Part shown: positions 11,191 to 56,057 of the stretch, in pieces
How positions within the stretch are numbered: position 1 is the stretch's first letter
Layout: every line of letters starts with the position of its first letter
Assembly: GCA_945890755.1 (NCBI GenBank)
Contig: CAMDDA010000002.1
Location: 1-62,723 of the forward strand
DNA length: 62,723 bases
Source of the DNA: Candidatus Kuenenia stuttgartensis
Lineage (GTDB): Bacteria; Planctomycetota; Planctomycetia; Pirellulales; UBA1268
Direction of reading: 5' to 3'
Notes under the pieces: generated by a model
The model's input: only the letters and a program-made list of their open reading frames with translations
What the model was told of the DNA's origin: nothing
Databases searched by the model: none
Position numbers and translations under genes: made by a program

Positions 11191-13391
11191 GCGTCATCTC
11201 CCTTCGACGAGCCCGCGGTGTGGGCAATCCGGATCCCCACGGCGAAGAGCGCGACGCCGCACACCATGCCCATCACCGCCGCCGCCACGCCCCACGGTGG
11301 AATGCCCGTGAGGTCGGTGGTCGAGCCCCCTGCTTCGGCTGCCGCAGCCAGGGCCGCGCGGCCCCCCGCGAGGGCGACGAGCCCGAGCGGGATGCTGTTG
11401 TGCACGAGATGACAGACGATCGCCGGCAGGATGCTGTGTGTGGCCACCGTCATCGCGCCGAGGGCGATGCCGAGCGCGAATGTCTGCGGCATCCGCTCGG
11501 GCAGCAGGTGAAACAGGGCGAAACAGGCCGCCTGCGCCACGACGGCGACTGCCAGCCGCCGCAGCGACGCACCCGCACCGGCGAACGCGGCGAGCACCCA
11601 GCCGCGAAACAGGAATTCCTCGCAGACCGCGGGCACGACGGCCATCAGGCACCAGGCCAGCCAGCCCGGCCGCTCGAGCATCAGGTGGAGCAGGCGGCGG
11701 TTGAGATCCTCCGCCTCGGCCGACAGGGCGGTCCCCTTCACCGCGAGCAGCGCCGCCGCGCCGATCCCGAACAAGCCGGCGCCCACGAGTCCTGCGCCCC
11801 CCAGGCAGGCCGTCAGGGAGGCGACGTGTCTGCCCGACCCGCCGGCGCCGAGCGGCATGCCCCCGGGCCAACGGACGGAGAACGTGCGGACGAGGTTCAC
11901 CCGTTGCCACCAGACGACCAGCGCCAGCGGCCCCAGCACGGTGAGTACCTGCTGCAGCGGAATGGCCAGCGTCAGGTCGTCGGGAGTGAGTCCCTGTGCG
12001 TACCAGAGCGCCGCCAGTCCGGCGACGAGTGGCACGACACCCTCGACGACCGTGGGCCGCTCCCGGCGACTCGGCCGCGCCAAGCCCTTCGTCGCGGCGT
12101 CGGGGCCGCGGAACAGGATGTCTTCGTCGGTGAGCATCAACGCCGTCACGCCGAGCAACAGCCAGGTGAGCAACAGGGACGACACGATGGTGGCCGCCAG
12201 AGGTCCGGCCACGCCGCCGCTCGCCTCGTCGAATGCCGTGCGGGCGACCAGCACCTGGCCGGCAAAGGGCACGGCCGCCACCGGACTCGCCGCCCGCATG
12301 CCGGGAAGCAGTGCCGTGCCCGCCAGCGCGCTGACCAGGAGGATCACCGGTGTGAGCGTGTTTTGGGCCTCCTTGCCGCTCTTGGCCGCCGTCGTCACCG
12401 CCAGGCAGGTCGCCGACGCAAGGGCCGCCAATCCGGTGAACGCCGCCACGCCGACGGCCGCCGGCCAGACGACGCCGCGCGGCAGTTCGAGACTCAGCCC
12501 GGCCGGCAGATACCGACCGGCTACCGCCGCCGTGGCGCCGATCGAGGCCACGTTGACGACGAGCGTGACGAGCGTGATCGCGAACACGGCGAGAAATTTC
12601 CCGAACACGATGTCGCGGGCCGCACAGGGAGCGATGAGGAGGGTTTCGATCGTGCCGCGCTCCTTCTCGCCGGCGATCGCATCGATGGCGGGATAGAAGG
12701 CCCCGGTGAGCGTGAGCACGGCGAGCAACACGAGCACGCCCCCGGCGACGATCGGCACGATCTGCTTGGGCGCCGCGGCCGCAGCCGTCTCGCCCGGAAA
12801 CGTGAGCCGCACCGGCTCCAAGAATGCCGCCGGCACACCGGCAGCCGAGAGCCGTCGCCGGCGGGCCTCGTCGGCGACCTCGGTCATGACCGCCGTGAAC
12901 TGCTCCTGGACCCTCGCCGGCGGCGGCGGTTTCGCCGCCCAAGAGACGGGCAGTTCGACCGTCCCCGCGCCGTCGAGCAGGCGATCACAGTCCGCCGGCA
13001 CGTCCACCCACACATCCGCCTCGGCTGCGTCGAGCCTCCGCTTCGCCTCCGCGGCCGTGACCGTCTCGAGGCGGATCTGTGCCGGCCAGACGGATCGCGG
13101 ACGGCGGCGGGCCGTGGCATCGGCCGCGGTGATCCGCCGGGCGAGGGCGTCCGCACCGTCCCCGGAGAGCACCACCGCGATCCGCGCCGGGGCCCGCTCG
13201 ACCTGTATCTCGGTGGCGGCCGTGCGCAGCCCCAGCGCGGTGGAGAGCGCGAGCATGGGATACATCGCCACCGGGAGGATCAAGGTCACGACGAGCGTGC
13301 GGCGGTCGCGGACGAACTCCACGAGGTCGCGGCGGGCGATGGCCAGCGCCGCATGGAGACCACCCGGTCGGTTGCGACCTGCACCGGTCAT
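11187..13391 (-). CDS. ABC-2 type (NatB-like) transporter permease fused to a CPBP/CAAX intramembrane protease domain
   Basis: The N-terminus ...IARRDLVEFVRDRRTLVVTLILPVAMYPML is typical of ABC-2 permeases. The C-terminus carries CPBP motifs EEFLFRGW, FALFHL and HLVHN. There are ATGA overlaps at both ends. Confidence 0.75.
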   Translation of the reverse strand: MTGAGRNRPGGLHAALAIARRDLVEFVRDRRTLVVTLILPVAMYPMLALSTALGLRTAATEIQVERAPARIAVVLSGDGADALARRITAADATARRRPRSVWPAQIRLETVTAAEAKRRLDAAEADVWVDVPADCDRLLDGAGTVELPVSWAAKPPPPARVQEQFTAVMTEVADEARRRRLSAAGVPAAFLEPVRLTFPGETAAAAAPKQIVPIVAGGVLVLLAVLTLTGAFYPAIDAIAGEKERGTIETLLIAPCAARDIVFGKFLAVFAITLVTLVVNVASIGATAAVAGRYLPAGLSLELPRGVVWPAAVGVAAFTGLAALASATCLAVTTAAKSGKEAQNTLTPVILLVSALAGTALLPGMRAASPVAAVPFAGQVLVARTAFDEASGGVAGPLAATIVSSLLLTWLLLGVTALMLTDEDILFRGPDAATKGLARPSRRERPTVVEGVVPLVAGLAALWYAQGLTPDDLTLAIPLQQVLTVLGPLALVVWWQRVNLVRTFSVRWPGGMPLGAGGSGRHVASLTACLGGAGLVGAGLFGIGAAALLAVKGTALSAEAEDLNRRLLHLMLERPGWLAWCLMAVVPAVCEEFLFRGWVLAAFAGAGASLRRLAVAVVAQAACFALFHLLPERMPQTFALGIALGAMTVATHSILPAIVCHLVHNSIPLGLVALAGGRAALAAAAEAGGSTTDLTGIPPWGVAAAVMGMVCGVALFAVGIRIAHTAGSSKGDDA

Positions 13392-14149
13392 GACGACGCT
13401 CCGAGGCCCCGTGTTTCGATCACGGCGAAGAAGGCCGCCTCGAGTGTGGCCGGGCCGCCGGCCGGCGCCGCCGCGACGAGATCCTGTCGCGTGCCCGCGG
13501 CCACCACCCGGCCGCCGTGGATCACCACGAAGCGGTCGCAGCGCTGCTCGATCTCGTGCAGCCGGTGCGTGGAGAGCAGGATGGCGTGTCCCGCCGACCG
13601 GAGTTCGGCCAGCAGCTCGAGCAGGTCGCGGGCGCCCACGACGTCGAGGGCGTTGGTCGGCTCATCGAGCACGAGGGCCGGCGGACCGTGCACCAGCGCG
13701 CGGCCGAGCGACACCCGCTGTCGTTGCCCCGACGACAGCCGGCCCGCGGGCCGGTCGGCACACGACCGGAGGCCCAGCACGTCGAGTAGCTGTTCCACCC
13801 GCGCCCGGCGAGCCGCCGGTTCGAGCCCGTGCAGCCTGCCGAACGAATCGAGCACCTCCCGCGGCGTGAGCCGGTCGGGTACGCCGGTCGTCGCGGACAC
13901 ATACCCGAGCCGCTGCCGGACGCCGACGGGATCGGTGCACACGTCGCAGCCGCCGACCACGGCCGTGCCTGACGTGGGCTTGAGCAGCGTCGCGAGCACC
14001 CGCAGCGTGGTCGTCTTGCCGGCCCCATTGGCACCGAGCAGGCCCACCATCTCGCCGGCGGCGACGCCGAACGAAACACCATCGACCGCCTTCACGACAC
14101 CGCCGTCACTCGCCCGGTAGTGCTTCACGAGATCGACGACTTCGATCAC
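13388..14149 (-). CDS. ABC transporter ATP-binding protein (NatA-like)
   Basis: Walker A GANGAGKTT, signature LSSGQRQR, Walker B LVLDEPT. Confidence 0.9.
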   Translation of the reverse strand: MIEVVDLVKHYRASDGGVVKAVDGVSFGVAAGEMVGLLGANGAGKTTTLRVLATLLKPTSGTAVVGGCDVCTDPVGVRQRLGYVSATTGVPDRLTPREVLDSFGRLHGLEPAARRARVEQLLDVLGLRSCADRPAGRLSSGQRQRVSLGRALVHGPPALVLDEPTNALDVVGARDLLELLAELRSAGHAILLSTHRLHEIEQRCDRFVVIHGGRVVAAGTRQDLVAAAPAGGPATLEAAFFAVIETRGLGASS

Positions 14150-18392: not shown

Positions 18393-19397
18393 GTGCCCGC
18401 GACGATTTATTACGACGCCGACGCCGACCTCGCCGCCCTCAAGGGCAAGACCATCGCCATCATCGGCTACGGTTCCCAGGGCCATGCGCAGGCCCAGAAC
18501 CTCCGCGACAGCGGGCTGAATGTCGTCGTGGCCCAGCGTCCAGGCGGCCCCAACTACGAGCTGGCGAAGAGCCACGGCTTCTCGCCGATGTCGGTGGAAG
18601 ATGCGGTGAAGCAGGCCGACGTGATCAACATCCTCCTGCCGGACGAACTGGCCGGCGACGTCTATCGCGCGGCGATCAAGCCGAATCTCAAGAAGGGCGC
18701 CGTGCTGATGGCCAGCCACGGGTTCAACTTCCACTTCGGCCAGATCGAGCCCCCGGCCGGCCACGACATCCTCCTCGTGGCGCCCAAGGGGCCCGGCCAC
18801 CTCGTGCGGAGCGAATACGTGAAGGGGGGCGGCGTGCCCTGCCTGATCGCGCTGGGGCCGAATGCGTCGGCCGAGACGAAGAAGATCGGCCTGGCCTACG
18901 CCAAGGGCATCGGCGGCACCCGTGGCGGCGTGATCGAAACCACAATCGCCGAGGAGACCGAGACCGACCTGTTCGGCGAGCAGGCCGTGCTCTGCGGCGG
19001 TGTGTCGGAGCTGATCAAGGCGGGCTTCGACACGCTCGTCGAGGCGGGCTACCAGCCCGAAATGGCCTACTTCGAGTGCCTCCACGAAATGAAGCTCATC
19101 GTCGACCTGCTCTACCAGGGCGGACTGGAGTACATGCGGTACAGCGTGTCGAACACGGCCGAGTATGGCGACTACACCCGCGGCAAGCGGATCATCACCG
19201 ACGAGACCCGCGCGGAAATGAAGAAGATCCTCGAGGAGATCCGCTCGGGCGAGTTCGCCCGCGACTGGATCCTGGAGAACCGTGCCGGCGCCGCGATGTT
19301 CAAGAGCACCCGCCGCCGCGAGCGCGAGCACCAGCTCACGCACACCGGCCGCCAGCTCCGCAAGATGATGAAGTGGATCGAGAGCAAGGAAGTCTGA
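18393..19397 (+). CDS. ilvC: ketol-acid reductoisomerase (class I)
   Basis: [21 protein letters not shown], ...[11 protein letters not shown].... GTG at 18393 sits 6 nt after CAGGAG. Confidence 0.95.
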
Positions 19398-19424
19398 TCC
19401 GAGGAGCCTGAGCGAGGGAGTGCG

Positions 19425-19700
19425 ATGACGCCCGAGGAATACCAGGCCCGCAGCCTCTACGAGCAGCTCCAGCCGGGCGACCGGGTGGAGGTGGCGCACG
19501 GCGTGACGGTGGGCTCGAGCGCGAAGTGGAGCACCACGACCGTGGGCAAGGTGCTGCGGACGGAGCGGCGGCGGCATGGTCTCCACTTCCGCCGCAACGC
19601 CGACGACAAGGTCTACAGCGACGTGTTGATCCTCGCCCGCGACGACGGCGAACTCACCACGGTGACGATCGACGAATACACGCGGCTCCGTAAGCTGTAG
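19425..19700 (+). CDS. hypothetical small protein (91 aa)
   Basis: ATG is preceded by GGGAG. GC-rich third positions and balanced composition support coding. The TAG stop lies inside the first GTAGGCC of the following REP-A copy. Confidence 0.55.
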   Translation: MTPEEYQARSLYEQLQPGDRVEVAHGVTVGSSAKWSTTTVGKVLRTERRRHGLHFRRNADDKVYSDVLILARDDGELTTVTIDEYTRLRKL

Positions 19701-19774
19701 GCCCGTTGCTCCGCAACGGGCAAGGCCGCAGCCCGTCACGGCGTGACGGGCCTACGGGGGCATGACGGGCCTAC
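19697..19774 (-). repeat. REP-A element, reverse orientation, with an extra half unit
   Basis: GTAGGCCCGTTGCTCCGCAACGGGC...GCCCGTCACGGCGTGACGGGCCTAC...ATGACGGGCCTAC. The flanking TCACCC carries the stop of the minus-strand gene, as at 2532. Confidence 0.9.
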
Positions 19775-22700
19775 TCACCCGCGCTTGCCGAGCACGGTGA
19801 TGCAGTCGCCGAACCGCGGCACGCCGATCCGCAGGCGACCACGCGGCGACTGCCATGTCCATTGCGATTCCTGCCTCATGACCGTAAGCCCCGCCGCACG
19901 GGCCCAGCTCCGCACGTCGGCCCGCGACACCGGTGACCGCCAGCCGTGATCCTCGGGCTGATCGGCCGGCGCGTCTCGGCCAGTCGCGACCTCCGCTCCA
20001 CCCCCCCGCCAGCGTGCGAGCCGGCGCAAGGCGTGTTGCAGGAGCCCGCCACCGCCGCGATCGGCATGGTGCAGCACCGCCAGGCCGCCTGGCCGCAGCA
20101 CCCGCGAGATTTCGAAGAGATAGCGGCGGAACTCCTCCGGGCCCACGTGCACGAGGCAGTCGTAGCTCCACACGCCATCGACCGCCGCAGTGAGATCGGC
20201 GGGCAGGTCGGCAGCCCGGGAGAGGTGGGTTCGCAGCCGGCCGCGGCCGGCGAGCCGCTGGCGGCAGGCATCGAGGCAGTTCGGCGCGATGTCACAGAGC
20301 ACGAGCAGGCCAGCATGGCCGATGATGAGATCCGACCAGCGGCCGTGGCCCGGGCCGATCTCCAGGATCGTGCCCCGCGGCCGGAAGAGCGGCAGGTAGC
20401 GGGCGATGAGGCCGGCCTTCCAGTCGGGGTAGGGCACGCCGCAGGCCCGCGCCTGACCGTCCCAGCCATCGCCGTCCCCCGTCCACGGATCGCGGGCATC
20501 CCACTGGGAGAGATTGTTGTGCACGGTGTGCTCGCGGCCGGCACCGCTCCCCGCGTCGGCCGCGCCGGCGGCCTCGATCCGCCGCTCGGCCGCGAGCCGC
20601 CACTGCTGCACCGGCTCGGGATGGCGACGCTCCAACTCCATCAGCATCGGCAGCCAGCGGCGCGAGACCGCCGCCTTCACCCGGGCGATTTCCGGCGCGG
20701 GCAACAGGATCTCGCCACGGTTGCGGGGAGTGAGGTGACCTGACTTGTCACCGACCTCCGCCTTCCGCGACTCGATCCCGAGGAACCTGCAGGTGCGATC
20801 GATCAAGGCCGCGGGATCGCGGGCCATGTCGTCGTGAAACAGCACGAGCAGCCGCTCGGCGGGCAGGTGCCGCTGCCAGATGTCGAGGGTCCGCACATAG
20901 TCGGTGCGCAGCACATTGGCCGGGGATTCGCAGGCCGCGAGCAGCTGGGCCGCCGTGGGCCGCTCGACCCCTTCCCGATGGAGTTGGTGCATCCCGCCGG
21001 AGACCGCGCGGGTGACCGGATCCCGCAGCATGAAGATCACCTTCACGTCGGGCATGACCCGCGCGATCTCCGCAACGGCCTCCTCGGCCAGCGTGGCATA
21101 TGCCGGCGTGAAGTCGCAGGCAAGCTGGTCGTCGGGAGCCGACTCGAAGATTGCCGCGTAGTTTTCCCACGACTCCGCCGGGGGAAACCCGTGCCGCAAC
21201 GCCATCCGGATCAGGCGGCTGCGGTGCATGTCATCCGGGCTGCCCGCTGCGGCGGTCGCCAGCACCGCCAGCGCCTGCCGCTGGCGAAACTCGCCGATGG
21301 CAGGATCGCTTCCATCCTGGTCGAAGTGATGAAACTCCTTGATGCCGCACCGCCAGACCTGCGGATGCTGCTGCAGTACGGCATGGAGCCAGGTGGTGCC
21401 CGAACGCTGGGCGCCGATGCAGAGCACGTCGGGCAGCCGCGGCCGGCCAGCGAAGTCGTCGAGCGTGCCGAGCGGATCGCCCAGCCGCACGGCCTCACTG
21501 CCCGCAGGCAGCGGCTGGAGCGAGGCGATCGCATCGGGGCCGACACCGATGCCCAATTCAAGAATCGGCTCCCGGGCATTGACGAGGATCGTGACCAGCT
21601 CACCAGGCTCGGCCGTGAACAGGACCGATCGGCCTCGGGTATAGGCTTCCGTCGTCCGCAGGAACACCGCCGTATCGTTCAGGTAGCCCGAGGTCGCAAC
21701 CGGTGGAGCGTGCCGAAAGCGGATGAGATACAGCCCGGCCGGTACGGCAGCATGGACCGTTGCACCGATCACTGGAAGCGGGAAACGTGGCACAGCGGCG
21801 AGGCTCGATCCATCGCCCTGAATCCTGACCTGCCGGGCTTGGCTGAAGAACTCCGGCAGAGGTGCGGGATCGGGCCAAGCCGCCACGGATGGCTCGAACC
21901 GCCAATGATCGAGCCGAGGCGAATTGGGAATTCGATCACTTGGCTCGCGGAGGTGCCAGTGCGCCAGACTCTCCGGCAGGACTCCGATCGCATGCCTCGC
22001 GGCGATGCGGCGGTTGAAGTGCCAGTCGCCCAGGGCGGGCAGGCCGGCGTGGAATGGTTCGACCTCTTCATAGGCACGGCGTCGGAACACGAATGCGATC
22101 GGTGGAAAGCGATTGGTCGTCGCAAGATCGTCGGCCGTGATGCGATCGATCATCGGGCCGAACTCGATCACCTTCCGCCGCACATACTCACTCCTCTCCC
22201 AGGCTTCGCGCACGAGCCGGCTGCGACTTACGGCCGCCATCTCGCCGGTGGTGTGCAGCCGGCCGACCATCCGCTCCAAAAACTCCGGGCTCCAGCTGTC
22301 GTCGTCGTCGTGGATCACGATGAACTCGCCCGGACCGGCCGCGATGCCGGCATTGCTCGCCGCCTCCATGCCGTGTTGACGGTCGCGGTGCAGGATGCCG
22401 AGCCGGCCCTCGAGCAGGTGGCGATAGGGGGTGACCTCGTCTTCCACCAGGTGCGGCGGTCCGCCATCGTTGACGATCTGCAGGAACCAGTGCGGGTAGG
22501 TCTGCGACAAGACGCTGCGAATCGCCCGTGGCAGCATGTGCAGCCTCCACCGCGTCCGCATCACGATGAGCACGCGTCCGAGGTCGGCCGGGCCGGCATC
22601 GGCCGGCGCGTCTGCCACGAGCTCGGCGGCGGTCACGCCGCCGGCCTGCTCGAGCGACCGGTGATGCCAGAGCTGCGGGTCAACGAATGCTGCCGCTGCC

Positions 22701-23320
22701 GAGGCGCGATCGGCTGCGTCGGAAATCCCGCACAAGGTCCCCATGGCGGTGAATGCCGCCAGCGGCTCGTGGAGCACGTCGTCGTGATGCACCACCAGCA
22801 CGGCGAGCCCCACGGTGTCGCGGTCGATGCTCCGCTGATGGTCGCTCCAGATCCGCACCGCCAGCTCGTGTGGCATCGCGTTGCGGGCGGCGAGCGATGC
22901 CGCCACGTCGTCGGCCGCGCGAAACACACGCACGATCCGCAGCTCGACACCCGCCCGCCGGGCCACCTCCCGCCACAGTGGAATGAGCAGGCTCGACCGC
23001 GGATCCTTCACCAGCCAGTGGCCGTGGGCGGCCAGCTCTTCAGCGGCGATCGCCACGAAGCGGTCGATGATCGCGCGGGCATCGGGCCATTCGAGCCACC
23101 GGGCCGGCAGCGGGCCCGGCGACGAGTGCCACTCGCGGCCAAACCGGATCAGGAGCCGCTCCTGCGCCTGCCAGACGTCGGCGTGCTCCCAGTGGCCGTG
23201 TGGATTGGCGGGATGCGGCGCCGTGTCGATCCGTGAGCCGAGATTCACGCCCATGGCGTGGAGACCGCGGGCCACGAGCGACGTGCCCGACCGGTGCATG
23301 CCCACGACGAGAATGATCAT
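19775..23320 (-). CDS. multidomain enzyme: sulfotransferase - GT2 glycosyltransferase - unknown region - sulfotransferase - class I SAM methyltransferase
   Basis: 1181 aa from ATG 23320.
- aa 1-220: VVGMHRSGTS (5'-PSB-like) and LVKDPRSS.
- aa ~248-470: GT2 (VLSQTYPHWFLQIVNDGG, IVIHDDDDSW).
- aa ~475-625: no recognisable motif.
- aa ~628-860: LCIGAQRSGTTWLH and FMLRDPVTRAVS.
- aa ~935-1181: ILEIGPGHGRW, LRPGGLAVLH.
The first 167 aa of the track ORF are Arg-rich and overlap rlmI, so I rejected them. Confidence 0.8.
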   Translation of the reverse strand: MIILVVGMHRSGTSLVARGLHAMGVNLGSRIDTAPHPANPHGHWEHADVWQAQERLLIRFGREWHSSPGPLPARWLEWPDARAIIDRFVAIAAEELAAHGHWLVKDPRSSLLIPLWREVARRAGVELRIVRVFRAADDVAASLAARNAMPHELAVRIWSDHQRSIDRDTVGLAVLVVHHDDVLHEPLAAFTAMGTLCGISDAADRASAAAAFVDPQLWHHRSLEQAGGVTAAELVADAPADAGPADLGRVLIVMRTRWRLHMLPRAIRSVLSQTYPHWFLQIVNDGGPPHLVEDEVTPYRHLLEGRLGILHRDRQHGMEAASNAGIAAGPGEFIVIHDDDDSWSPEFLERMVGRLHTTGEMAAVSRSRLVREAWERSEYVRRKVIEFGPMIDRITADDLATTNRFPPIAFVFRRRAYEEVEPFHAGLPALGDWHFNRRIAARHAIGVLPESLAHWHLREPSDRIPNSPRLDHWRFEPSVAAWPDPAPLPEFFSQARQVRIQGDGSSLAAVPRFPLPVIGATVHAAVPAGLYLIRFRHAPPVATSGYLNDTAVFLRTTEAYTRGRSVLFTAEPGELVTILVNAREPILELGIGVGPDAIASLQPLPAGSEAVRLGDPLGTLDDFAGRPRLPDVLCIGAQRSGTTWLHAVLQQHPQVWRCGIKEFHHFDQDGSDPAIGEFRQRQALAVLATAAAGSPDDMHRSRLIRMALRHGFPPAESWENYAAIFESAPDDQLACDFTPAYATLAEEAVAEIARVMPDVKVIFMLRDPVTRAVSGGMHQLHREGVERPTAAQLLAACESPANVLRTDYVRTLDIWQRHLPAERLLVLFHDDMARDPAALIDRTCRFLGIESRKAEVGDKSGHLTPRNRGEILLPAPEIARVKAAVSRRWLPMLMELERRHPEPVQQWRLAAERRIEAAGAADAGSGAGREHTVHNNLSQWDARDPWTGDGDGWDGQARACGVPYPDWKAGLIARYLPLFRPRGTILEIGPGHGRWSDLIIGHAGLLVLCDIAPNCLDACRQRLAGRGRLRTHLSRAADLPADLTAAVDGVWSYDCLVHVGPEEFRRYLFEISRVLRPGGLAVLHHADRGGGGLLQHALRRLARWRGGGAEVATGRDAPADQPEDHGWRSPVSRADVRSWARAAGLTVMRQESQWTWQSPRGRLRIGVPRFGDCITVLGKRG

Positions 23321-23346
23321 CGGTTCGCGGCAATCAGCCCCAGATG

Positions 23347-24573
23347 TCACGCCACGCGGGCGATGACGCACTTGAGGTATTCCCCCTCGAGGCAGCTGGC
23401 GCTCACGGGGTGGTCGGGGGCCGCGCCGCGGCATTCGAGCAACTGGATCGGCCGGCCCGACCGCTGGGCCACGCCGGCGAGCATCTGCAGGAAGTCGTCC
23501 CGGGGCACGGAGCCCGAGCAGGAGCAGGTGACGAGAATGCCCCCCGGCTCGAGCAAATCGACGGCCACGCGGTTGATCCGATGGTAGGCCCGGAGGGCGT
23601 CGTCGAGGCTCGCGCGGCTGCGGGCGAACTTCGGCGGATCGAGGATCACCATGCCGAACCGCTCGCCCGCGGCGCTCAGGGCATCGAGTTTCTCGAAGGC
23701 GTCGGACGTCTCGACCGTCACGTTCGCCGCACCGTTCAAATCGGCGTTGGCCTTCGCGAGTGTCGTCGCCTTCGCGCTCGAATCGACGGCCAAGACACTG
23801 CGGGCACCGCCTGCCGCGCACGACACGGCAAAGCCGCCGGAGTAGCAGAACATGTCGAGCACTCGCCGGCCGCGGGCATAGGCCGCCGCGGCCTGACGAT
23901 TGTCGCGCTGGTCGAGGTAGTAGCCCGTCTTCTGCCCCTCGGCGAGGTCCACGCCGAATCGCAGCCCACGCTCCGAGACGAAGATCGGGCCGGCCGGGGG
24001 CGTGCCGCGGATCACGCGATCGGGCAGGTGCAGGCCCTCGAGCTTCGCCAGGCCGCGGTCCGCACCTCGCAGCAGAATGCCCCGCGGTGCCAGGAGCGAC
24101 TCGAGGATGTCGCTGATCATCTCCAGCCGTGGCACGAGTGCCGCTGCCGTCACCTGCACGGCGAGATGCTCGCCGTAGCGATCCACGATCAGGCCCGAGA
24201 GGCTGTCCCCCTCGCTGTTCACCAGCCGGCAGCCACCCGTGCGGTCGTCGAGGCCGAGCGTCCGGCGCAGGCCGACAGCCGCCTCCAGTCGGGTCCGCCA
24301 GAACGCGGCATCGAGTTGCGTGGCCGCATCGAACGCATACAGCCGCACGCGGATCCGGCTGGCCGGATTCCAGAGGCCGCGGGCCACGAAGCTGCCGTCA
24401 TGCGTCGCCAGATCGACGACATCCCCCTCGGCCGGTTCACCATCGAGCCGGAGCACGGCCGAGTCGAGCACCCAGGGATGCCGCCCAAAAAACGGGCGGG
24501 CCCGCTTCGGTTTCAGCACCACGGTCGCGGTCGGCAGTCCGGTGCCGGGATCACTGTCCGGCCCGTCAGGCAT
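23347..24573 (-). CDS. rlmI: class I SAM-dependent rRNA (cytosine-C5) methyltransferase, RlmI/RlmK-like
   Basis: PUA-like N-terminus (RPFFGRHPWVLDSAV), ...QKTGYYLDQRDNR..., VLDMFCYSGGFAV, ILDPPKFA. Confidence 0.85.
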   Translation of the reverse strand: MPDGPDSDPGTGLPTATVVLKPKRARPFFGRHPWVLDSAVLRLDGEPAEGDVVDLATHDGSFVARGLWNPASRIRVRLYAFDAATQLDAAFWRTRLEAAVGLRRTLGLDDRTGGCRLVNSEGDSLSGLIVDRYGEHLAVQVTAAALVPRLEMISDILESLLAPRGILLRGADRGLAKLEGLHLPDRVIRGTPPAGPIFVSERGLRFGVDLAEGQKTGYYLDQRDNRQAAAAYARGRRVLDMFCYSGGFAVSCAAGGARSVLAVDSSAKATTLAKANADLNGAANVTVETSDAFEKLDALSAAGERFGMVILDPPKFARSRASLDDALRAYHRINRVAVDLLEPGGILVTCSCSGSVPRDDFLQMLAGVAQRSGRPIQLLECRGAAPDHPVSASCLEGEYLKCVIARVA

Positions 24574-27133
24574 GCACGACCTGCTTGGTCGGGCCTGGGA
24601 GTACGTGCGGCGTGGGCAGGCTGTCGCTGCCGGGATCGACCTTCACCTTGCGGCTGCCCTCGCGGGCGGCCTTCTTCCGCTCGAGCCGCAGTACACTCCA
24701 ACCGAAGACGGCGCCCAGTGGACCGGAGAGCAGCGCCGGCAGGAAGACGAGGTTGCCGACCAGCGCGACCGTGAGCATCGAGAGCATCATGTAGCCGAAC
24801 CGCTGCGTCGGGCCGAACGGCGACAGCGAGAAGACCGAAAGGCCGATCCCGATCACGCCCCAGCTCTGATACATCGCCCGGGCACAGCCCTTGTAGGCGA
24901 GCATCGTGGCCTGCCGGCGGTCGAGCCCTTCGGCGATGCCGCGGCGGAACCAGAGCATGAAGTGCACGACGTCGTCCACCGTCACGCCGAGCGCCACGCT
25001 CGGGGCCATCACGGTGCCGATGTCGATGAGCAGGTTGCCGGTGCCGAGCGACTTGAGGATCGCGTTGCCCCAGCCCATGCTGCCGAAGACCATGATCGCG
25101 GGAAACGCGGCGGGCAGGAGGAGCACGAGCCCGGCCGAGGCGGCACGGCAGAGCAGGATCATCACCGCCACGATGATCGCAAAGTCCCAGATGAAGCCGA
25201 TCTTGAGGCCGTCGAGCAGCGAGTGCTGGGCCTTGTAGACGAGCGGCACGAGGCCGGTGTAGTCCACCGACACGCCGGCCACGCCCTCGCTCTCGAGCCG
25301 CGCCAGGATCGGATCGATCTTCTTTTGCAGGTCGGCCTTGAAGAGGGCGTAGTCGACCTCCTTCACGGCGCTCACGCGGGCACTGATCCGCCACAGTTCC
25401 TGATCGTGGACCTCGCCGTCCGAGCCGGCGACCCGGGCCTCGCGGAGGTAATCGCCGGCCAGGAAGTCGTCGCGATGGGCGGTGAGCCGGCGATTGAGCA
25501 CGCTCCGCCGCGTGCGGCCGTTGAGGCCGATGGCCCGGCCCGCCACGCCGCCGATGCCGTCGCCCGATTCACCCACGTCGAGGCTGCGACCGAAGGTCAC
25601 CGTCGAGAGCGAACTCCCCACCTCGTCGAGGCCGCCGATCTCCCGTTGGATCTCACCGACGAGCTCCATCCGCTCGAGGAAGTTGAGCGGGCATGTCGTG
25701 TCGTCGATCCGGACGAGGATCTCCATCGGCACGAGCGGGCCGAGGTGATCTTCGAGCCACTTGTAATCGGCGCGGATCCGGGCCTTCGGCGAGAAGAGCC
25801 GCATCAGTTGCACGCTGCTCTCGACGCGCGTCATGCCATAGCCGACGCCGGCCATCACGAGCAGGCAGGCCGTGGCGGTGAGGGCATGGTGCCGCGTGAT
25901 CCACTCGCCCACCTTCCACCACGGGCTCGACTCGATCGGTCGCCATGAGGCCGACTCCTCATTGCCCCCGGCCGCGACTCCGATCTTGAGCTTGGGCGGA
26001 AAGAGCTCGAGGGCCGCCGGCATGAGCGTCACGAGGATGATGAAGCTCGTGAGCACGCCGAGCGCCGAGAAGATGCCGAACATCCGGATCGGCACGAGCT
26101 CGCTCACGCCGAGCGTGGCGAGGCCAACGGCCGTCGTGCCCGTGGCCAGCGAGAGCGGCAGGAGCGCGTGCTGGACCGCGTGGCCGGCCGCCCCCTCCTG
26201 AACGCCGGTTTCCGCGAGTTGGTCGCGGTAGTAATTGGCGAGGTGGATCGCCCCCGACGTCGTCGCCACGTAGACCAGCGATGGCATCGTGAGCAGGATC
26301 GCATCGACCGGATAGCCGGAGTACCAGACGATCGCGAGGCTCGCGAACATGCTGTAGACGCCCGACGCGATCACGAGCGTGACGAGCGTCGGACTCTTCA
26401 GGCTCCACCAGCTGACGATGCCACCCACGACGAGCGACAGGCCGAAGAGCACGGTCACGCTCGTCTGGCCGGCCTTGTCGATCGAGACGTTGTCAACCGG
26501 CGGCCCACCCATGTGGAACGACGCCTCCGGGATGCCGCATTCCTGCACCGCCACCCGCTTGATCGTGTCGATCGCCCCGTGGAGGTTGGCCCGGGCGGCG
26601 TCGGACAGCGTCAGCACCAGGCAGGTCTGGCGGGCGGCATGGTCGTCGGCGGGAGAGTTGGCCTCCACGCCGGCCGGCGGCGGCCCGATCAGGGCCCCGG
26701 TGAGCCGGCTGACGGCCTCGGCAGGGTCGAGGTTGAGCGGCTCCTGCGACATCTGGGCCACGGCCCGCGGGCCCGTCTGGGCCGTCTTGAAGTACAGCGG
26801 CCGCTCGATCCGGGAGGCCTCCTCCGGGGGCGGCAGGAGCTTCCGGGCCAGCAGCTCGAGCCGGGGATCGGCCATCGTGCAGCCGTCCCAACTGGCGAGG
26901 ACGAACTCCTCGCCCTGGAAGTTCTGGCGGAAGAACCGGTAGGTCTGGGTTTCTGGATATTCGAGGGGCAGCCAGCCTTTGACGTCGTTGCGATTGTTGC
27001 CCTTGGCCTTGATCGCCCCGATCACCACCAGCGGCAACAGAAACACGAGGACCGCGAGGATCCCCACGCTAGAGCGCTGGTAGAAGTTCTTCCGGGAGTG
27101 CGACTGCTGCGACATCGATGTCGTCCGGGCCAT
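24566..27133 (-). CDS. MMPL/RND superfamily transporter
   Basis: 855 aa with two 6-TM bundles and large periplasmic loops, the typical MMPL layout. It overlaps the rlmI start by 8 nt. Confidence 0.75.
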   Translation of the reverse strand: MARTTSMSQQSHSRKNFYQRSSVGILAVLVFLLPLVVIGAIKAKGNNRNDVKGWLPLEYPETQTYRFFRQNFQGEEFVLASWDGCTMADPRLELLARKLLPPPEEASRIERPLYFKTAQTGPRAVAQMSQEPLNLDPAEAVSRLTGALIGPPPAGVEANSPADDHAARQTCLVLTLSDAARANLHGAIDTIKRVAVQECGIPEASFHMGGPPVDNVSIDKAGQTSVTVLFGLSLVVGGIVSWWSLKSPTLVTLVIASGVYSMFASLAIVWYSGYPVDAILLTMPSLVYVATTSGAIHLANYYRDQLAETGVQEGAAGHAVQHALLPLSLATGTTAVGLATLGVSELVPIRMFGIFSALGVLTSFIILVTLMPAALELFPPKLKIGVAAGGNEESASWRPIESSPWWKVGEWITRHHALTATACLLVMAGVGYGMTRVESSVQLMRLFSPKARIRADYKWLEDHLGPLVPMEILVRIDDTTCPLNFLERMELVGEIQREIGGLDEVGSSLSTVTFGRSLDVGESGDGIGGVAGRAIGLNGRTRRSVLNRRLTAHRDDFLAGDYLREARVAGSDGEVHDQELWRISARVSAVKEVDYALFKADLQKKIDPILARLESEGVAGVSVDYTGLVPLVYKAQHSLLDGLKIGFIWDFAIIVAVMILLCRAASAGLVLLLPAAFPAIMVFGSMGWGNAILKSLGTGNLLIDIGTVMAPSVALGVTVDDVVHFMLWFRRGIAEGLDRRQATMLAYKGCARAMYQSWGVIGIGLSVFSLSPFGPTQRFGYMMLSMLTVALVGNLVFLPALLSGPLGAVFGWSVLRLERKKAAREGSRKVKVDPGSDSLPTPHVLPGPTKQVVHA

Positions 27134-28701: not shown

Positions 28702-29580
28702 TCAGCCGGGCCTCCGCCGCGGAGGCAGGAGACGGTTGTCGATGAGCCGCGTGCCGCCGAGGCGACCGGCCACGATGGCGATGGCCGGCGGCTGGGCGCC
28801 GGCGGCAGGCAGCGGCTCGAGGGTGTCGGCAGCCACGACGGCCGCATAGTCGATGGCGATGCCGCGCGTCTCGAGCGGATCGCGGATGGCCTGCTCGACT
28901 GCTGCCACCGCGCCCCCGCTCTGCCAGAGTCGCTCGGCGGCGCAGAGCCCTTCATGCAATGCCACGGCCCGCCGCCGTTCTTCGGCGGCGAGGTAGGCAT
29001 TCCGTGAACTCATCGCCAGGCCATCGGCCTCGCGCACGGTGGGGCAGACGGCGATCTCGATCGGCAGGCCGAGGTCGTGCACCATCCGTTTGACGACGAG
29101 CGTCTGCTGCCAATCTTTTGCGCCGAAGTAGGCGACGTCGGCGGGAACGCAGTGAAACAGCCGACAGACGACCGTCGCCACCCCCGCAAAATGCCCGGGG
29201 CGAATCTCCCCCTCGAACCGCCGCGCGGGCCCATCGACGACCACGCGGGTGGCCGCGCCCGGCGGATACATGTCGGCGGCCTCGGGTACGAAGATCCAGC
29301 GCACGCCGCGCGGCGCGAGGAGCGCCGCATCAGCGGCAAGCGTCCGCGGATAGCGGGCGAAGTCTTCCGTGGGACCGAACTGCGAGGGATTCACGAAGAT
29401 CGACACGACGACGTCGTCGCACTCGAGAGCCGCCTGCTCGACGAGGCTCGCATGCCCCGCATGCAGCGCGCCCATCGTGGGCACGAAGCCGACCCGCCTC
29501 CCGGCAGCCCGCGACTCGAGCACTGCGGCCCGCATCGCGGCCGGCTCGCGGATCTGCGCCACCGTCACGGCCGCCGTCAT
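28702..29580 (-). CDS. panC: pantoate--beta-alanine ligase
   Basis: GFVPTMGALHAGHASLV, SIFVNPSQF, FGAKDWQQ, MSSRN. Confidence 0.95.
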   Translation of the reverse strand: MTAAVTVAQIREPAAMRAAVLESRAAGRRVGFVPTMGALHAGHASLVEQAALECDDVVVSIFVNPSQFGPTEDFARYPRTLAADAALLAPRGVRWIFVPEAADMYPPGAATRVVVDGPARRFEGEIRPGHFAGVATVVCRLFHCVPADVAYFGAKDWQQTLVVKRMVHDLGLPIEIAVCPTVREADGLAMSSRNAYLAAEERRRAVALHEGLCAAERLWQSGGAVAAVEQAIRDPLETRGIAIDYAAVVAADTLEPLPAAGAQPPAIAIVAGRLGGTRLIDNRLLPPRRRPG

Positions 29581-30674
29581 CAGAGCATCGCCTCGACCGC
29601 CGCCGTCGCTTCGGCGGTGGCGCGGCCCAGATCGTCGGCCGGCACCACCACCACGGCCTTCGGCGCCCGGGGCGAGCGGGCCTCGCGCGACCGCAGTCGC
29701 TCGACGAGCCGCTCCTGCATCCGCATGAGCGTTGCGACGGCCACATCGGGCGCCGTGCAGACCGCAACACCGCTCCGCGTCACGTCGGCGAACACGTTCG
29801 ACCAGCGGTCGGCCTGCCGACAGCTGAAGGCGACCCGCTCCTCGAGCGTCGCCGCATCCGCCACGAGCAGGATCGCCACGTGCGGCTGGATCGTGGTGCG
29901 GGCCACGGCGTCCAGTTCCGCTTCGAGTCGCGCCAGCGATTCGCGAGGCAGTTCATCCGCGGCCGCCACGGCGAGCGAGTCGAGCCAAAAATCGGCGATC
30001 GCGCCGTGCGGCTCGTCGTGCCAGCCGGCCGCGGCCAGCGGCCGCGCCCAAGAGGAGAGGGTCTGCGACCATGCAGCCGATCCGGGAGGCAGCGCCGCGG
30101 GCAGCGGCACGGGGGCCCGCACGAGCCGTGAGAGCGTGGCGTCGGCCACGGCCTCGGCCACCTCGTGCGCCCCGCTCCCGGGCACGCCGACGACGGCGAC
30201 GAGCGGGTGCGACACGGAAATGTTGTCGAGCAGGTCCCGCACCGTGCAGGAAGCTGTCGGAATGGTAAGGTCGCCGGCGATCTCGACGGACGGTTCGAGC
30301 ACGAACCGCCGGGTGGCCATCCGCGGATGCGGCACCGTCAGCTCCGCCGTCTCGACCACCAGGTCTTCATAGAGCAAGAGATCGAGATCGATCGTTCGCT
30401 CTCCCCACCGTTCGAGCCTCTCCCGGTGCAGCGTGTTCTCAACGGCTGCCAGCATGCCGAGCACGTCTTCAGGCGGCAGGTCTGTCTCGATCAGGCAGGC
30501 GCCGTTGAGATACGCATCCTGGCCTACGGGGCCGCCGACGGGCCGCGTCTCACGAAAGCGGCTGACGGCGACGAGCGCCACGCCGGGCATGAATCGCAGC
30601 AGTTCGACAGCCCTGTCGAGTTGCTCACGTCGTTTGCCCAGGTTGGAGCCGCATCCGATGAGGCATCGTGCCAT
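29580..30674 (-). CDS. folK: HPPK (2-amino-4-hydroxy-6-hydroxymethyldihydropteridine diphosphokinase) fused to a C-terminal P-loop-kinase-like domain with a degenerate Walker A
   Basis: N-terminal ~160 aa: IGCGSNLG...R...TIDLDLLLY...LTVPHPRMATRRFVLEP. The C-terminal ~200 aa start with VAVVGVPGSGAHEV, which is GxxGxGK-like but has Ala in place of Lys. Confidence 0.8.
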   Translation of the reverse strand: MARCLIGCGSNLGKRREQLDRAVELLRFMPGVALVAVSRFRETRPVGGPVGQDAYLNGACLIETDLPPEDVLGMLAAVENTLHRERLERWGERTIDLDLLLYEDLVVETAELTVPHPRMATRRFVLEPSVEIAGDLTIPTASCTVRDLLDNISVSHPLVAVVGVPGSGAHEVAEAVADATLSRLVRAPVPLPAALPPGSAAWSQTLSSWARPLAAAGWHDEPHGAIADFWLDSLAVAAADELPRESLARLEAELDAVARTTIQPHVAILLVADAATLEERVAFSCRQADRWSNVFADVTRSGVAVCTAPDVAVATLMRMQERLVERLRSREARSPRAPKAVVVVPADDLGRATAEATAAVEAML

Positions 30675-40305: not shown

Positions 40306-41799
<1,494 letters not shown>

Positions 41800-41809
41800 C
41801 AGGTGTTCC

Positions 41810-45010: not shown

Positions 45011-45157
45011 GCGATCTCCTTGGGGCAGACAGGCCGCGGCGGTCAGACCGGCACGGCTTTCGGCGTTGAATACCAGGAGTCGGCGTTGCGCTCCGCCGGC
45101 TCGACCTTGAAATTGTAGCATCCTGTATGGGGGCGAACCACGGCTATTCTGCCGACA

Positions 45158-45248
45158 GGAGGCCCGTTGCTCCGCAACGGGCTGCCCGTCACGGAGTGAC
45201 GGGCCTACGGTAGGCAACGGGCTTCCCGTCACGGAGTGACGGGCCTAC
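45158..45248 (-). repeat. REP-A element, reverse orientation, expanded
   Basis: GGCCCGTTGCTCCGCAACGGGC-T-GCCCGTCACGGAGTGACGGGCCTAC, then GTAGGCAACGGGC-TT-CCCGTCACGGAGTGACGGGCCTAC. It lies in a divergent promoter region. Confidence 0.9.
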
Positions 45249-45386
45249 GAGACCGCTGCTCGCCAAACTGCGTATTCTGGTCTGCCTGACCCTGACCTTC
45301 CTCCTGCCTGTAACAGGCGTACCGCGGGGGAGTGATCTGGATGGGGCCGTCCGTATTCCCATCCGTATTCATTGGAGAAGCGTGTC

Positions 45387-54315: not shown

Positions 54316-54374
54316 GCGGCGGAAGCCGCGGACGGGCCGCACACGATTCACTCCGGCCGGTATCCTGTGCGGCC

Positions 54375-56057
<1,683 letters not shown>

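What the first reader, a model, noticed from the sequence alone, without database searches (positions are those of the whole stretch)
19775..23320. Five-module single polypeptide: sulfotransferase, GT2, unknown region, sulfotransferase, methyltransferase
**Modules.** One 1181-aa ORF strings together four recognisable catalytic modules and one unassigned region:
- a PAPS-type sulfotransferase (GMHRSGTS / KDPRSS)
- a GT2 glycosyltransferase (DDDD motif)
- a second, different sulfotransferase (GAQRSGTTW / LRDPVTRAVS)
- a class I SAM methyltransferase (ILEIGPGHG)
- a ~150-aa region (aa ~475-625) with no motif I recognise

**Possible function.** This would be a self-contained line for making a sulfated, methylated glycoconjugate.

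**Context.** It lies at the end of a long co-directional minus-strand run: folK-fusion, panC, lgt, CDGSH, MMPL, rlmI, then this gene. An MMPL lipid/glycolipid exporter sits two genes upstream. Mycobacterial sulfolipid loci likewise combine a sulfotransferase with an MmpL exporter, so a sulfoglycolipid or sulfated envelope glycan is a reasonable but unproven product.
Basis: partly seen in the sequence, partly recalled or inferred. Interest (0 to 1): 0.7.

Follow-up and report, generated by a model that had tools for sequence, protein, structure and literature searches.

The report
Five-module sulfated-glycan tailoring enzyme
A planctomycete gene fuses two different sulfate-adding enzymes, a sugar-adding enzyme, a small beta-sandwich domain and a methyl-adding enzyme into one protein that most likely decorates a cell-surface polysaccharide; the fusion is real and undescribed, but each part is a familiar kind of enzyme.

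Summary
Window 19775..23320 (-) is one uninterrupted 1181-aa ORF. Its order is sulfotransferase (ST1), GT2 glycosyltransferase, beta-sandwich, heparan-sulfate-type sulfotransferase (ST2), class I methyltransferase.

The same co-linear architecture occurs in about 40 protein clusters at 36-97% identity. These come mainly from Planctomycetota and Verrucomicrobiota metagenomes, so a frameshift merger is excluded. Split-gene versions and 4-module versions also exist.

The "unknown" region is a confidently modelled beta-sandwich with no significant PDB match. At sequence level it occurs only directly in front of ST2-type sulfotransferases.

MMPL adjacency is seen only in the window's own clade, inside a housekeeping block (folK-panC-lgt-CDGSH-MMPL-rlmI). 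In about 13 other contexts the neighbours are:
- giant multi-GT proteins, RgpF and GT2/GT4/GT11 enzymes;
- Wzm/Wzt ABC-2 exporters;
- PAPS-supply genes (CysD, CysNC, APS kinase, SulP).

Best reading: a soluble cytoplasmic tailoring enzyme that adds a sugar to a lipid-linked surface polysaccharide, sulfates it twice and methylates it. Its partners are encoded elsewhere in this genome. I class it as a new variant of a known kind, of moderate interest.

The parts
19775..23320 (-). Complete CDS, 1181 aa plus stop (stop codon 19775-19777). The ATG at 23320 lies 27 nt downstream of the rlmI stop.
   Evidence: co-linear full-length homologues; the identical protein was called on public contigs
22655..23320 (-). 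Module 1 (aa 1-222): ST1, a Sulfotransfer_3-like PAPS sulfotransferase domain. 5'-PSB loop GMHRSGTS; 3'-PB-like KDPRSS; invariant W44-E45-H46.
   Evidence: Pfam PF13469, 22.7 bits, spanning profile positions 2-212 of 216. AF2 pLDDT 88. Foldseek top hits 4gox, 3ap2 and 4gbm are all sulfotransferases, E 7e-5 to 3e-4. Stand-alone homologues carry PF13469.
22580..22654 (-). Linker (aa 223-247): Ala/Pro-rich, poorly conserved, modelled with pLDDT below 50.
21881..22579 (-). Module 2 (aa 248-480): GT2 (GT-A fold) glycosyltransferase. Invariant HDDDD (337-341) and GDW (431-433).
   Evidence: Pfam PF00535, 67.2 bits. PDB sequence hits GalT1, PglI, heparosan synthase B and SpsA. Invariant columns.
21479..21841 (-). 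Module 3 (aa ~494-614): beta-sandwich domain with no Pfam, NCBIfam or PDB assignment. It is the least conserved part and shows a GC3 dip.
   Evidence: AF2 gives eight strands with block pLDDT 80-95. Foldseek PDB finds nothing below E 0.09. Pfam finds nothing at E<=10. A profile search finds 26 proteins in 1.84 billion. In the eight clean single-stretch hits I scanned, the domain lies directly N-terminal of an ST2-type domain. GC3.
20606..21445 (-). Module 4 (aa 626-905): ST2, a heparan-sulfate 3-OST/NDST-like carbohydrate sulfotransferase. Motifs: GAQRSGTTW, K661-E662-F-H664-H-F, DFTPAY, LRDPVTRAVS.
   Evidence: Pfam PF13469 98.5 bits and PF00685 61.8 bits. PDB 3-OST-3A at E 9e-14, with residue-level alignment of the PSB loop, the E-x-H-F-F-D motif and the RDPVTRA motif.
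20546..20605 (-). Ala/Gly-rich linker (aa 906-925).
19778..20545 (-). Module 5 (aa 926-1181): class I SAM methyltransferase. It has a conserved N-terminal extension (NNLxQWD...DGDxW) and a conserved C-terminal GWRS...GVPRFGDCI tail. Motif I is LEIGPGHG.
   Evidence: Pfam PF13649, PF08241, PF08242 and PF13489, all above cut-off. The module occurs as a stand-alone ~245-aa gene, in L027 inside a polysaccharide operon.
23347..27133 (-). Upstream neighbours rlmI (23347-24573) and an MMPL/RND transporter (24566-27133). They are listed only as context and are NOT judged part of the system.
   Evidence: the adjacency is conserved only within the window's clade

Best explanation
The gene encodes a soluble, cytoplasmic, five-module tailoring enzyme for a cell-surface polysaccharide.

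**Proposed mechanism.**
1. The GT2 module (DxD-type GT-A) transfers one sugar from a nucleotide sugar onto a lipid-linked glycan.
2. ST1 (Sulfotransfer_3-like) and ST2 (3-OST/NDST-like) each use PAPS to put sulfate on two different positions or residues.
3. The C-terminal class I methyltransferase O-methylates the glycan with SAM.
4. The beta-sandwich immediately before ST2 is an accessory, probably glycan-binding, domain of ST2.

Backbone polymerisation would be done by giant multi-GT and RgpF-type enzymes. Export would go through a Wzm/Wzt ABC-2 transporter. In this genome those partners are encoded outside the 62.7-kb window.

**Shown:** domain identities, conservation of the fusion, split-gene versions, and the recurrent neighbourhood in relatives.

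**Inferred:** the acceptor, the order of reactions, the activity of every module, and the role of the beta-sandwich.
For: **Domains.** Searches identify the four catalytic modules.

**Conservation.** About 40 clusters share the co-linear architecture. The catalytic motifs are invariant: PSB loops, KDPR/RDP, HDDDD, K-E-x-H, GPGxG.

**Split-gene versions (Rosetta-stone logic).**
- L042: GT4 | ST1-like | ST2-like.
- L008: ST1-like | MT | oxidoreductase | MT24.
- L017: GT4 | ST1-like | GT2 | MT.

**Neighbours in relatives.**
- Giant GT2+GT4 proteins: P0021 and P0014 and L007.
- RgpF: P0021, L002 and P0031 as neighbours, and fused to the family in P0043-46.
- Wzm/Wzt immediately adjacent: P0033 and P0041. 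In L013 an ABC2_membrane protein and a Wzt-like match lie nearby.
- GT2s, a GT11 and an MT: P0011.

**PAPS supply next to the gene.**
- CysD + CysN/C: P0033 and L015.
- APS kinase directly upstream: P0031.
- SulP sulfate transporter: P0047.

**Other points.**
- The stand-alone MT module in L027 sits in an operon with Bac_transf, GT2, GT4 and sugar epimerases.
- No transmembrane segment: the maximum Kyte-Doolittle 19-residue mean is 1.72, in the Rossmann beta-1 strand. This fits action on the cytoplasmic face, where PAPS, SAM and NDP-sugars are available.
Against: - In the window itself no glycan-synthesis or Wzm/Wzt gene was found among the ORFs I scanned; the neighbours are housekeeping. The assignment therefore rests on relatives at 36-66% identity.
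- Two Phycisphaerales loci (L003, L004) show no glycan genes in their short flanks.
- No member of the family is characterised, and no product is known.
- ST1 is below the Pfam gathering score. P-loop kinases also appear among the weaker structural matches.
Confidence: 0.6

Rival explanations
1. Chain-terminating or capping enzyme, a special case of the best explanation. The GT2 adds one non-reducing-end sugar. That sugar is then sulfated and methylated, and the cap stops polymerisation and licenses export by an ABC transporter. This would resemble WbdD or ORF6(O7) methyl-phosphate caps and WbbB Kdo caps, but use sulfate chemistry.
For: - Wzm/Wzt genes are directly adjacent in two relatives.
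- The protein has a single GT module plus three tailoring modules, unlike a polymerase.
- Known terminators combine a methyltransferase with a second group-transfer enzyme. One of them (ORF6 of K. pneumoniae O7) also has a predicted Ig-like CBM (PMC11231755).
- The beta-sandwich could bind the chain end.
Against: - The adjacent Wzt proteins are only 249 and 257 aa, with no room for the C-terminal CBM that couples export to a terminal cap (the CBM requirement is described in PMC11231755).
- No long coiled-coil ruler is evident. The only inter-module helical stretch is about 45 aa, judged by eye and not modelled.
- Two sulfotransferases plus a methyltransferase acting on one terminal sugar would be an unusually dense cap.
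Confidence: 0.2
2. One reading: the enzyme builds a sulfated glycolipid that the neighbouring MMPL transporter exports, by analogy with mycobacterial SL-1 (Stf0 plus MmpL8).
For: - MMPL lies two genes upstream on the same strand and is possibly co-transcribed. MMPL and rlmI overlap by 8 nt, and there is a 27-nt gap to the target.
- The arrangement is kept in a relative at 71% identity.
Against: - The whole block (folK-panC-lgt-CDGSH-MMPL-rlmI | target | ilvC-ilvN-rpsB-tsf) is housekeeping synteny.
- In a relative at 61% identity with the same rpsB-tsf-pyrH-frr-ABC block, the gene sits elsewhere, next to a giant GT, RgpF and MT24.
- No MMPL neighbour appears in about 13 other contexts.
- No Stf0-type PF09037 hit, and no pks or acyltransferase genes among the ORFs scanned.
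- The MMPL protein scores 53-73 bits against HpnN, HAE3 and actII models whose cut-offs are 352-875 bits.
Confidence: 0.07
3. The acceptor is a protein-linked glycan (pilin, S-layer or PEP-CTERM protein O-glycan) or a secreted EPS made by another route, rather than an ABC-exported lipid-linked polymer.
For: - In the Comamonadaceae 4-module version the neighbours are a pilin, a PglL/Wzy_C-type O-oligosaccharyltransferase and Ugd.
- In P0011 a PATR/PEP-CTERM protein lies downstream.
- In P0031 the neighbours include a TPR-GT41/GT61 protein.
Against: These are single occurrences. Wzm/Wzt, RgpF and giant GT associations recur more often.
Confidence: 0.1
4. ST1 is not an active sulfotransferase. 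It could be a degenerate, regulatory or PAP(S)-binding domain, or a P-loop kinase-like module, leaving only one sulfation step.
For: - ST1 is below the Pfam gathering score and has no NCBIfam hit.
- It has no PDB sequence hit.
- Gluconokinase and nucleoside-kinase folds appear at E 3e-3 to 4e-2.
Against: - The loop is R-S-G-T-S (the sulfotransferase 5'-PSB type) and lacks the Walker-A lysine.
- K105-D106-P107-R108, E45-H46, R134 and S142 are invariant across 18 diverse sequences.
- All six structural hits at E<=3.3e-4 are sulfotransferases.
- Stand-alone homologues pass PF13469, and some also PF00685.
Confidence: 0.1

Closest known systems
Multi-module enzymes of ABC-transporter-dependent O-polysaccharide assembly: WbdD (kinase + methyltransferase), K. 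pneumoniae O7 ORF6 (MT-kinase-CBM-coiled coil-2xGT2), WbbB
   Same: - Soluble or peripheral cytoplasmic proteins that string GT and group-transfer modules together.
- A methyltransferase paired with a second anionic-group transferase.
- A predicted beta-sandwich/CBM in ORF6(O7).
- Association with Wzm/Wzt (PMC11231755).
   Different: - The anionic group here is sulfate from PAPS, from two sulfotransferases, rather than phosphate from a kinase.
- No recognisable long coiled-coil ruler.
- The adjacent Wzt proteins in relatives lack a CBM.
- No sequence relationship beyond the generic GT2 and class I MT folds.
Heparan sulfate 3-O-sulfotransferases and the NDST sulfotransferase domain (Sulfotransfer_1, PF00685)
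   Same: ST2 aligns with human 3-OST-3A across the 5'-PSB loop, the catalytic E-x-H-F-F-D segment (here K-E-F-H-H-F-D), the acceptor-binding TPxY segment and the RDPVTRA 3'-PB motif (E 9e-14).
   Different: - Bacterial, cytoplasmic and fused to four other modules.
- Preceded by a family-specific beta-sandwich.
- Identity is low, and the acceptor is certainly not heparan sulfate.
Bacterial glycan sulfotransferases encoded as separate genes: NodH, M. loti KpsS, S. meliloti LpsS, Actinoplanes wps-1 WpsB/WpsH + WpsF
   Same: - PAPS-dependent sulfation of a bacterial surface glycan or glycolipid.
- The Actinoplanes wps-1 cluster likewise combines two sulfotransferases of different families with a SAM methyltransferase (PMC13390465; PMC11625862).
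   Different: - Those are single-domain proteins in Wzx/Wzy or nod clusters.
- Here the activities are fused with a GT2 in one polypeptide.
- The gene can sit away from any glycan cluster.
Mycobacterial sulfolipid-1 locus (Stf0, Pks2, PapA1/2, MmpL8)
   Same: A sulfotransferase gene near an MMPL-family transporter gene.
   Different: - No Stf0-family match, no pks or acyltransferase genes among the ORFs scanned, and no trehalose logic.
- MMPL adjacency is not conserved outside one clade.

Membership tests
PAPS-dependent sulfotransferase superfamily - ST2 module (aa 626-905) | Profile match above the curated cut-off (PF13469 / PF00685) | tested here: met
   98.5 bits against a cut-off of 27, and 61.8 bits against 22
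PAPS-dependent sulfotransferase superfamily - ST2 module (aa 626-905) | 5'-PSB loop, 3'-PB motif and catalytic Glu/His aligned to a solved carbohydrate sulfotransferase | tested here: met
   Residue-level alignment to 3-OST-3A (1t8t): GAQRSGTTW vs GVKKGGTRA; KEFHHFD vs AEPHFFD; LRDPVTRAVS vs VRDPVTRAIS. K661, E662 and H664 are invariant.
PAPS-dependent sulfotransferase superfamily - ST1 module (aa 1-222) | Profile match above the curated cut-off | tested here: inconclusive
   PF13469 at 22.7 bits, below 27, although it spans profile positions 2-212 of 216. No NCBIfam hit. Stand-alone homologues do pass PF13469, and the L008 and L042 orthologous single genes score 27.6 and 34.4 bits.
PAPS-dependent sulfotransferase superfamily - ST1 module (aa 1-222) | Sulfotransferase fold with a conserved PSB loop (RSGT[ST]) and a 3'-PB Arg/Ser | tested here: met
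   AF2 pLDDT 88. The top six Foldseek PDB hits are sulfotransferases, TM about 0.5. GMHRSGTS, K105-D-P-R108 and S142 are conserved.
PAPS-dependent sulfotransferase superfamily (both modules) | Sulfate transfer from PAPS to an acceptor | not testable with these tools
   Only indirect evidence: CysD, CysNC, APS kinase and SulP genes lie beside family members.
GT2 glycosyltransferases (GT-A fold) | PF00535 match above cut-off and a DxD motif | tested here: met
   67.2 bits against 23.3. H337-D-D-D-D341 is invariant. PDB sequence hits to GalT1, PglI, heparosan synthase B and SpsA.
Class I SAM-dependent methyltransferases | Rossmann-type MT profile above cut-off and motif I, (E/D)xGxGxG | tested here: met
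   PF13649 at 50.2 bits against 27, plus PF08241, PF08242 and PF13489. E987-x-G989-P-G991-x-G993 is invariant.
WbdD-type chain terminators of ABC-transporter-dependent O-antigen pathways | Coiled-coil molecular ruler separating the terminator from a membrane/polymerase anchor | not tested
   No coiled-coil predictor or full-length model was run. By eye only about 45 helical residues (aa ~870-915) lie between ST2 and MT.
WbdD-type chain terminators of ABC-transporter-dependent O-antigen pathways | Partner Wzt carries a C-terminal CBM that reads the terminal cap | tested here: not met
   The Wzt proteins adjacent to P0033 and P0041 are 249 and 257 aa, i.e. the nucleotide-binding domain only. L013 may have a longer Wzt (447-aa ORF), but this is unresolved.
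Mycobacterial-type sulfoglycolipid loci (Stf0 + MmpL + Pks/Pap) | Stf0-family sulfotransferase (PF09037) | tested here: not met
   PF09037 is absent from the Pfam scans at E<=1 (whole protein) and E<=10 (sub-regions).
Mycobacterial-type sulfoglycolipid loci (Stf0 + MmpL + Pks/Pap) | Conserved linkage to the MMPL exporter and lipid-building genes | tested here: not met
   MMPL is adjacent only in the window/P0007 clade, inside housekeeping synteny, and in none of the other contexts. No pks or acyltransferase genes among the window ORFs scanned.

The most novel reading that the evidence does not exclude
The protein is a new type of glycan chain-capping machine. It adds a single terminal sugar and converts it into a doubly sulfated, O-methylated cap. 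Sulfate would then be a previously undocumented termination or export-licensing chemistry for ABC-transporter-dependent polysaccharides. The family-specific beta-sandwich would read the chain end in cis, in place of a CBM on Wzt. It would also mean that freshwater Planctomycetota and Verrucomicrobiota, known for degrading sulfated glycans, coat themselves with sulfated glycans of their own.
Probability: 0.15. Interest if true: 0.7.

Novelty: new variant of a known kind. Interest (0 to 1): 0.45.

Why it matters
- **Few characterised examples.** Bacterial polysaccharide sulfation is known from only a handful of characterised enzymes (NodH, KpsS, LpsS). A 2026 paper still describes bacterial sulfated polysaccharides as exclusively cyanobacterial so far (PMC13390465; PMC11625862).
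- **A compact marker.** This family packs two distinct sulfotransferases, a GT2 and a methyltransferase into one soluble protein. That gives a sequence-recognisable marker for sulfated, methylated surface glycans in Planctomycetota, Verrucomicrobiota and some Proteobacteria and Actinobacteria.
- **Annotation.** Public annotation calls it only "SAM-dependent methyltransferase".
- **Practical use.** It is a candidate one-protein toolkit for chemo-enzymatic sulfation and methylation of glycans.
- **A new accessory domain.** It defines a beta-sandwich tied to 3-OST-like bacterial sulfotransferases.
- **Limit.** All four catalytic folds are ordinary and no new chemistry is demonstrated, so the finding is useful rather than surprising.

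Tried and rejected
- **Frameshift or merger artefact: rejected.** The ORF is uninterrupted, GC3 stays in frame, and about 40 co-linear homologues exist.
- **MMPL functional link: rejected** on context conservation.
- **Central region searches.**
  - Pfam at E<=10 found nothing.
  - Foldseek against the PDB gave only jelly-roll-like noise (haemagglutinin head, TNF, cupins; E>=0.09, TM<=0.27).
  - The profile search of 1.84 billion representatives returned 26 proteins. The clean single-stretch hits are family members or beta-sandwich-ST2 proteins. The multi-stretch hits in large proteins (for example P0181) look like low-complexity matches.
- **ST1 against NCBIfam and PDB by sequence:** no hits.
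- **Promoter and terminator scan of 19300-24700:** no promoter-like site, and one terminator-like hairpin inside the CDS at chance level.
- **Partner genes in the window:** tblastn with Wzm, Wzt, giant GT, RgpF, MT24, CysD and CysNC markers found only the generic ABC ATPase and CPBP-permease pair at 11187-14149.
- **Organism names:** the cluster look-up returned none.
- **Literature:** Mann, Kimber & Whitfield 2019 on termination chemistries is not held in the library. I could not check whether sulfotransferases were already proposed there as terminators.
- **L013 Wzt:** I could not settle whether it carries a C-terminal extension, because ORFs overlap in high-GC DNA.

Full report
**1. The observation**

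The window is high-GC (about 68%). It carries planctomycete hallmark genes: PSCyt1/PSCyt2/PSD1, DUF1501 and Fae.

On the minus strand a maximal ORF runs 19775..23821. The upstream rlmI gene ends at 23347. An ATG at 23320 opens with MIILVVGMHRSGTS, which is where nearly all homologues start.

GC3 is 0.80-0.93 in the reading frame over most of the gene. It dips to 0.65-0.71 only over aa 400-600, which is the least conserved part. There is no sign of a frame change.

**2. Domain identities**

Pfam places the following above gathering score:
- Sulfotransfer_3 and Sulfotransfer_1 at aa 630-855
- Glycos_transf_2 at aa 253-419
- Four class I methyltransferase models at aa 971-1148

A family profile searched against PDB sequences hits:
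- heparan sulfate 3-O-sulfotransferases (8e-13) for ST2
- GalT1, PglI, heparosan synthase B and SpsA for the GT2
- assorted class I methyltransferases

At residue level, ST2 aligns with human 3-OST-3A through the PSB loop, the catalytic E-x-H-F-F-D segment (KEFHHFD here), TPxY and RDPVTRA. K661, E662 and H664 are invariant in the family.

The N-terminal module is weaker by sequence:
- Sulfotransfer_3 scores 22.7 bits, below the cut-off of 27, although it spans almost the whole profile.
- There is no NCBIfam hit and no PDB sequence hit.

Structure and homologues support it:
- An AlphaFold2 model built on 33 sequences is confident (pLDDT 88).
- All six Foldseek PDB hits at E<=3.3e-4 are sulfotransferases: the olefin-synthase ST, TPST2 and the CurM ST. 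P-loop kinases appear only further down.
- The loop is RSGTS, the sulfotransferase type, with no Walker-A lysine.
- KDPR, E45-H46, R134 and S142 are invariant.
- Free-standing homologues of 250-390 aa carry PF13469, some also PF00685, and one is named sulfotransferase.

I therefore accept two sulfotransferase folds of different subtypes.

**3. The "unknown" region**

An AlphaFold2 model of aa 425-640 shows three helices that finish the GT2 domain. These are followed by an eight-strand beta-sandwich at about aa 494-614, with block pLDDT mostly 80-95.

- Foldseek finds no PDB match better than E 0.09.
- Pfam finds nothing.
- A profile of the region searched against 1.84 billion representative proteins returns only 26 hits.
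- I scanned eight of the clean single-stretch hits against Pfam. In each, the beta-sandwich lies directly N-terminal of an ST2-type sulfotransferase. This includes shorter architectures: beta-ST2-MT (P0188, 683 aa) and beta-ST2 (P0183).

The domain thus behaves as an accessory of ST2, not of the GT2. A glycan-binding role is an inference.

**4. The fusion is a conserved family with variants**

A search of 5.8 billion proteins gives about 40 clusters at 36-97% identity with 98-100% coverage and the same Pfam set. Nearly all are metagenomic and are annotated at best as "SAM-dependent methyltransferase".

Variants:
- P0039 and P0042, about 915 aa, lack the methyltransferase.
- P0043-46, about 1400 aa, replace the methyltransferase with an RgpF domain.

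In species-representative genomes, full-length copies occur in Pirellulales, Planctomycetia, Phycisphaerales and Chthoniobacter MAGs. Four-module copies occur in Comamonadaceae and Planctomycetaceae.

Split versions exist as adjacent genes:
- GT4 | ST1-like | ST2-like (Steroidobacteraceae, L042)
- ST1-like | MT | oxidoreductase | MT24 (Acidimicrobiaceae, L008)
- GT4 | ST1-like | GT2 | MT (an alphaproteobacterium, L017)

One Planctomycetaceae MAG has the four-module protein on one contig and the MT module on another (L007, L009). This is classic evidence that the modules act in one pathway.

**5. Genomic context**

In the window the gene closes a co-directional run: folK, panC, lgt, CDGSH, MMPL, rlmI. 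It faces ilvC/ilvN and then rpsB-tsf-pyrH-frr. A relative at 71% identity has exactly the same arrangement.

A relative at 61% identity keeps the rpsB-tsf-pyrH-frr-ABC/CPBP block, but the gene sits after that block. There it lies next to Methyltransf_24, a 1361-aa GT2+GT4 protein, RgpF and PPDK. So the gene has moved between related genomes.

Other contexts:
- A divergent 1440-aa WbsX-GT2-GT1 protein plus methyltransferases.
- CysD, CysN/C, then Wzm and Wzt immediately upstream.
- GT2, Wzt and Wzm immediately downstream, plus STELLO, AlgX, MBOAT and methyltransferases.
- GT4-RgpF, TPR-GT41/61, and an APS kinase directly upstream.
- GT2s, a GT11, a methyltransferase and a nucleotidyltransferase.
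- A GT2 and a SulP sulfate transporter.
- A pilin, PglL/Wzy_C and Ugd.
- A TPR-GT2.
- RgpF (L002), CysD/CysNC (L015) and a Wzt-like match in L013. L013 also has an ABC2_membrane protein, and L007 has a 1198-aa GT2+GT1 protein.
- Two Phycisphaerales loci are uninformative.

MMPL appears only in the window's clade. The MMPL protein itself is a generic RND/HAE3-like transporter, far below the HpnN or actII cut-offs.

A stand-alone homologue of the MT module lies inside an acidobacterial polysaccharide operon with Bac_transf, GT2, GT4 and sugar epimerases.

**6. Mechanism**

The protein has no transmembrane segment. All three donor types (PAPS, SAM, NDP-sugar) are cytoplasmic.

The best-supported model is a cytoplasmic tailoring enzyme acting on a lipid-linked surface polysaccharide. 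Its backbone would be made by separate multi-GT and RgpF-type enzymes, and it would be exported by an ABC-2 transporter. The enzyme would add one sugar, sulfate twice and methylate once. RgpF recurrence hints at a rhamnan-like backbone; this rests on the Pfam family name and general knowledge, and is an inference.

I cannot decide whether the modifications are per repeat unit or a terminal cap. The cap model is attractive by analogy with the methyltransferase-kinase terminators WbdD and ORF6(O7). ORF6(O7) also has a predicted CBM (PMC11231755). However, the adjacent Wzt proteins in relatives are NBD-only (249 and 257 aa), and no long coiled coil is apparent.

**7. Comparison with what is known, and novelty**

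Each catalytic module belongs to a well-known superfamily.

Clusters that encode two different sulfotransferases plus a methyltransferase as separate genes have been described genetically (Actinoplanes wps-1; PMC13390465). Few bacterial glycan sulfotransferases are characterised (PMC11625862).

My literature searches found no description of an ST-GT2-beta-ST-MT fusion. The library is incomplete, and a key bioinformatic survey of termination chemistries was not available.

I rate it a new variant of a known kind. The new elements are the domain architecture and an accessory domain, not a new principle.

**8. Verdict**

- Observation: confirmed.
- Interpretation: partly supported. The sulfated, methylated glycoconjugate idea holds. 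"Self-contained" and "MMPL-exported sulfolipid" do not.
- Interest: 0.45.

Noticed in passing
window 11187-14149 (-): An ABC ATPase (253 aa) is followed by a 734-aa ABC-2 permease fused to a CPBP/Rce1-like intramembrane protease (NF041647, 388 bits). The pair sits right after rpsB-tsf-pyrH-frr. The same arrangement is conserved in a relative (L082), where the five-module gene follows it directly.
   Followed up: partly
window 29580-30674 (-): The folK ORF is 364 aa, but the HPPK domain covers only aa 6-133. About 230 C-terminal residues have no Pfam match at E<=0.001.
   Followed up: no
window 21500-22120 (target aa ~400-600): Third-position GC drops from about 0.87 to 0.65-0.71 exactly over the poorly conserved, indel-rich beta-sandwich region. 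This suggests relaxed or diversifying evolution of that module.
   Followed up: partly
window 40306-51626: Planctomycete hallmark genes: a DUF1501 protein next to a PSCyt1/PSCyt2/LamG/PSD1 protein (1144 aa), and a divergent 2096-aa bacterial alpha-2-macroglobulin.
   Followed up: no
window 10066-11193 (-): A 374-aa protein with SBP_bac_3 + Lig_chan (+ weak Ion_trans_2) hits, i.e. a prokaryotic glutamate-receptor-like ligand-gated channel (gene table of L084).
   Followed up: no
window 56058-56723 (+) and 54270-56057 (+): A formaldehyde-activating enzyme (Fae) lies immediately downstream of an L-lactate permease.
   Followed up: no
L013 3598-7548 (Stella sp. MAG): Next to a family member there is a 636-aa protein with ABC2_membrane only in its C-terminal third. 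There is also a Wzt-like ATPase that may be 447 aa (possible C-terminal extension/CBM), overlapping an ORF that ends in a sulfotransferase domain. Gene boundaries are unresolved in the high-GC DNA.
   Followed up: partly
L002 123-3134 (Planctomycetia MAG): Two IS91-family (Y2 transposase) genes lie immediately upstream of the five-module gene, and RgpF lies downstream. This fits the gene's mobility between genomic sites.
   Followed up: no
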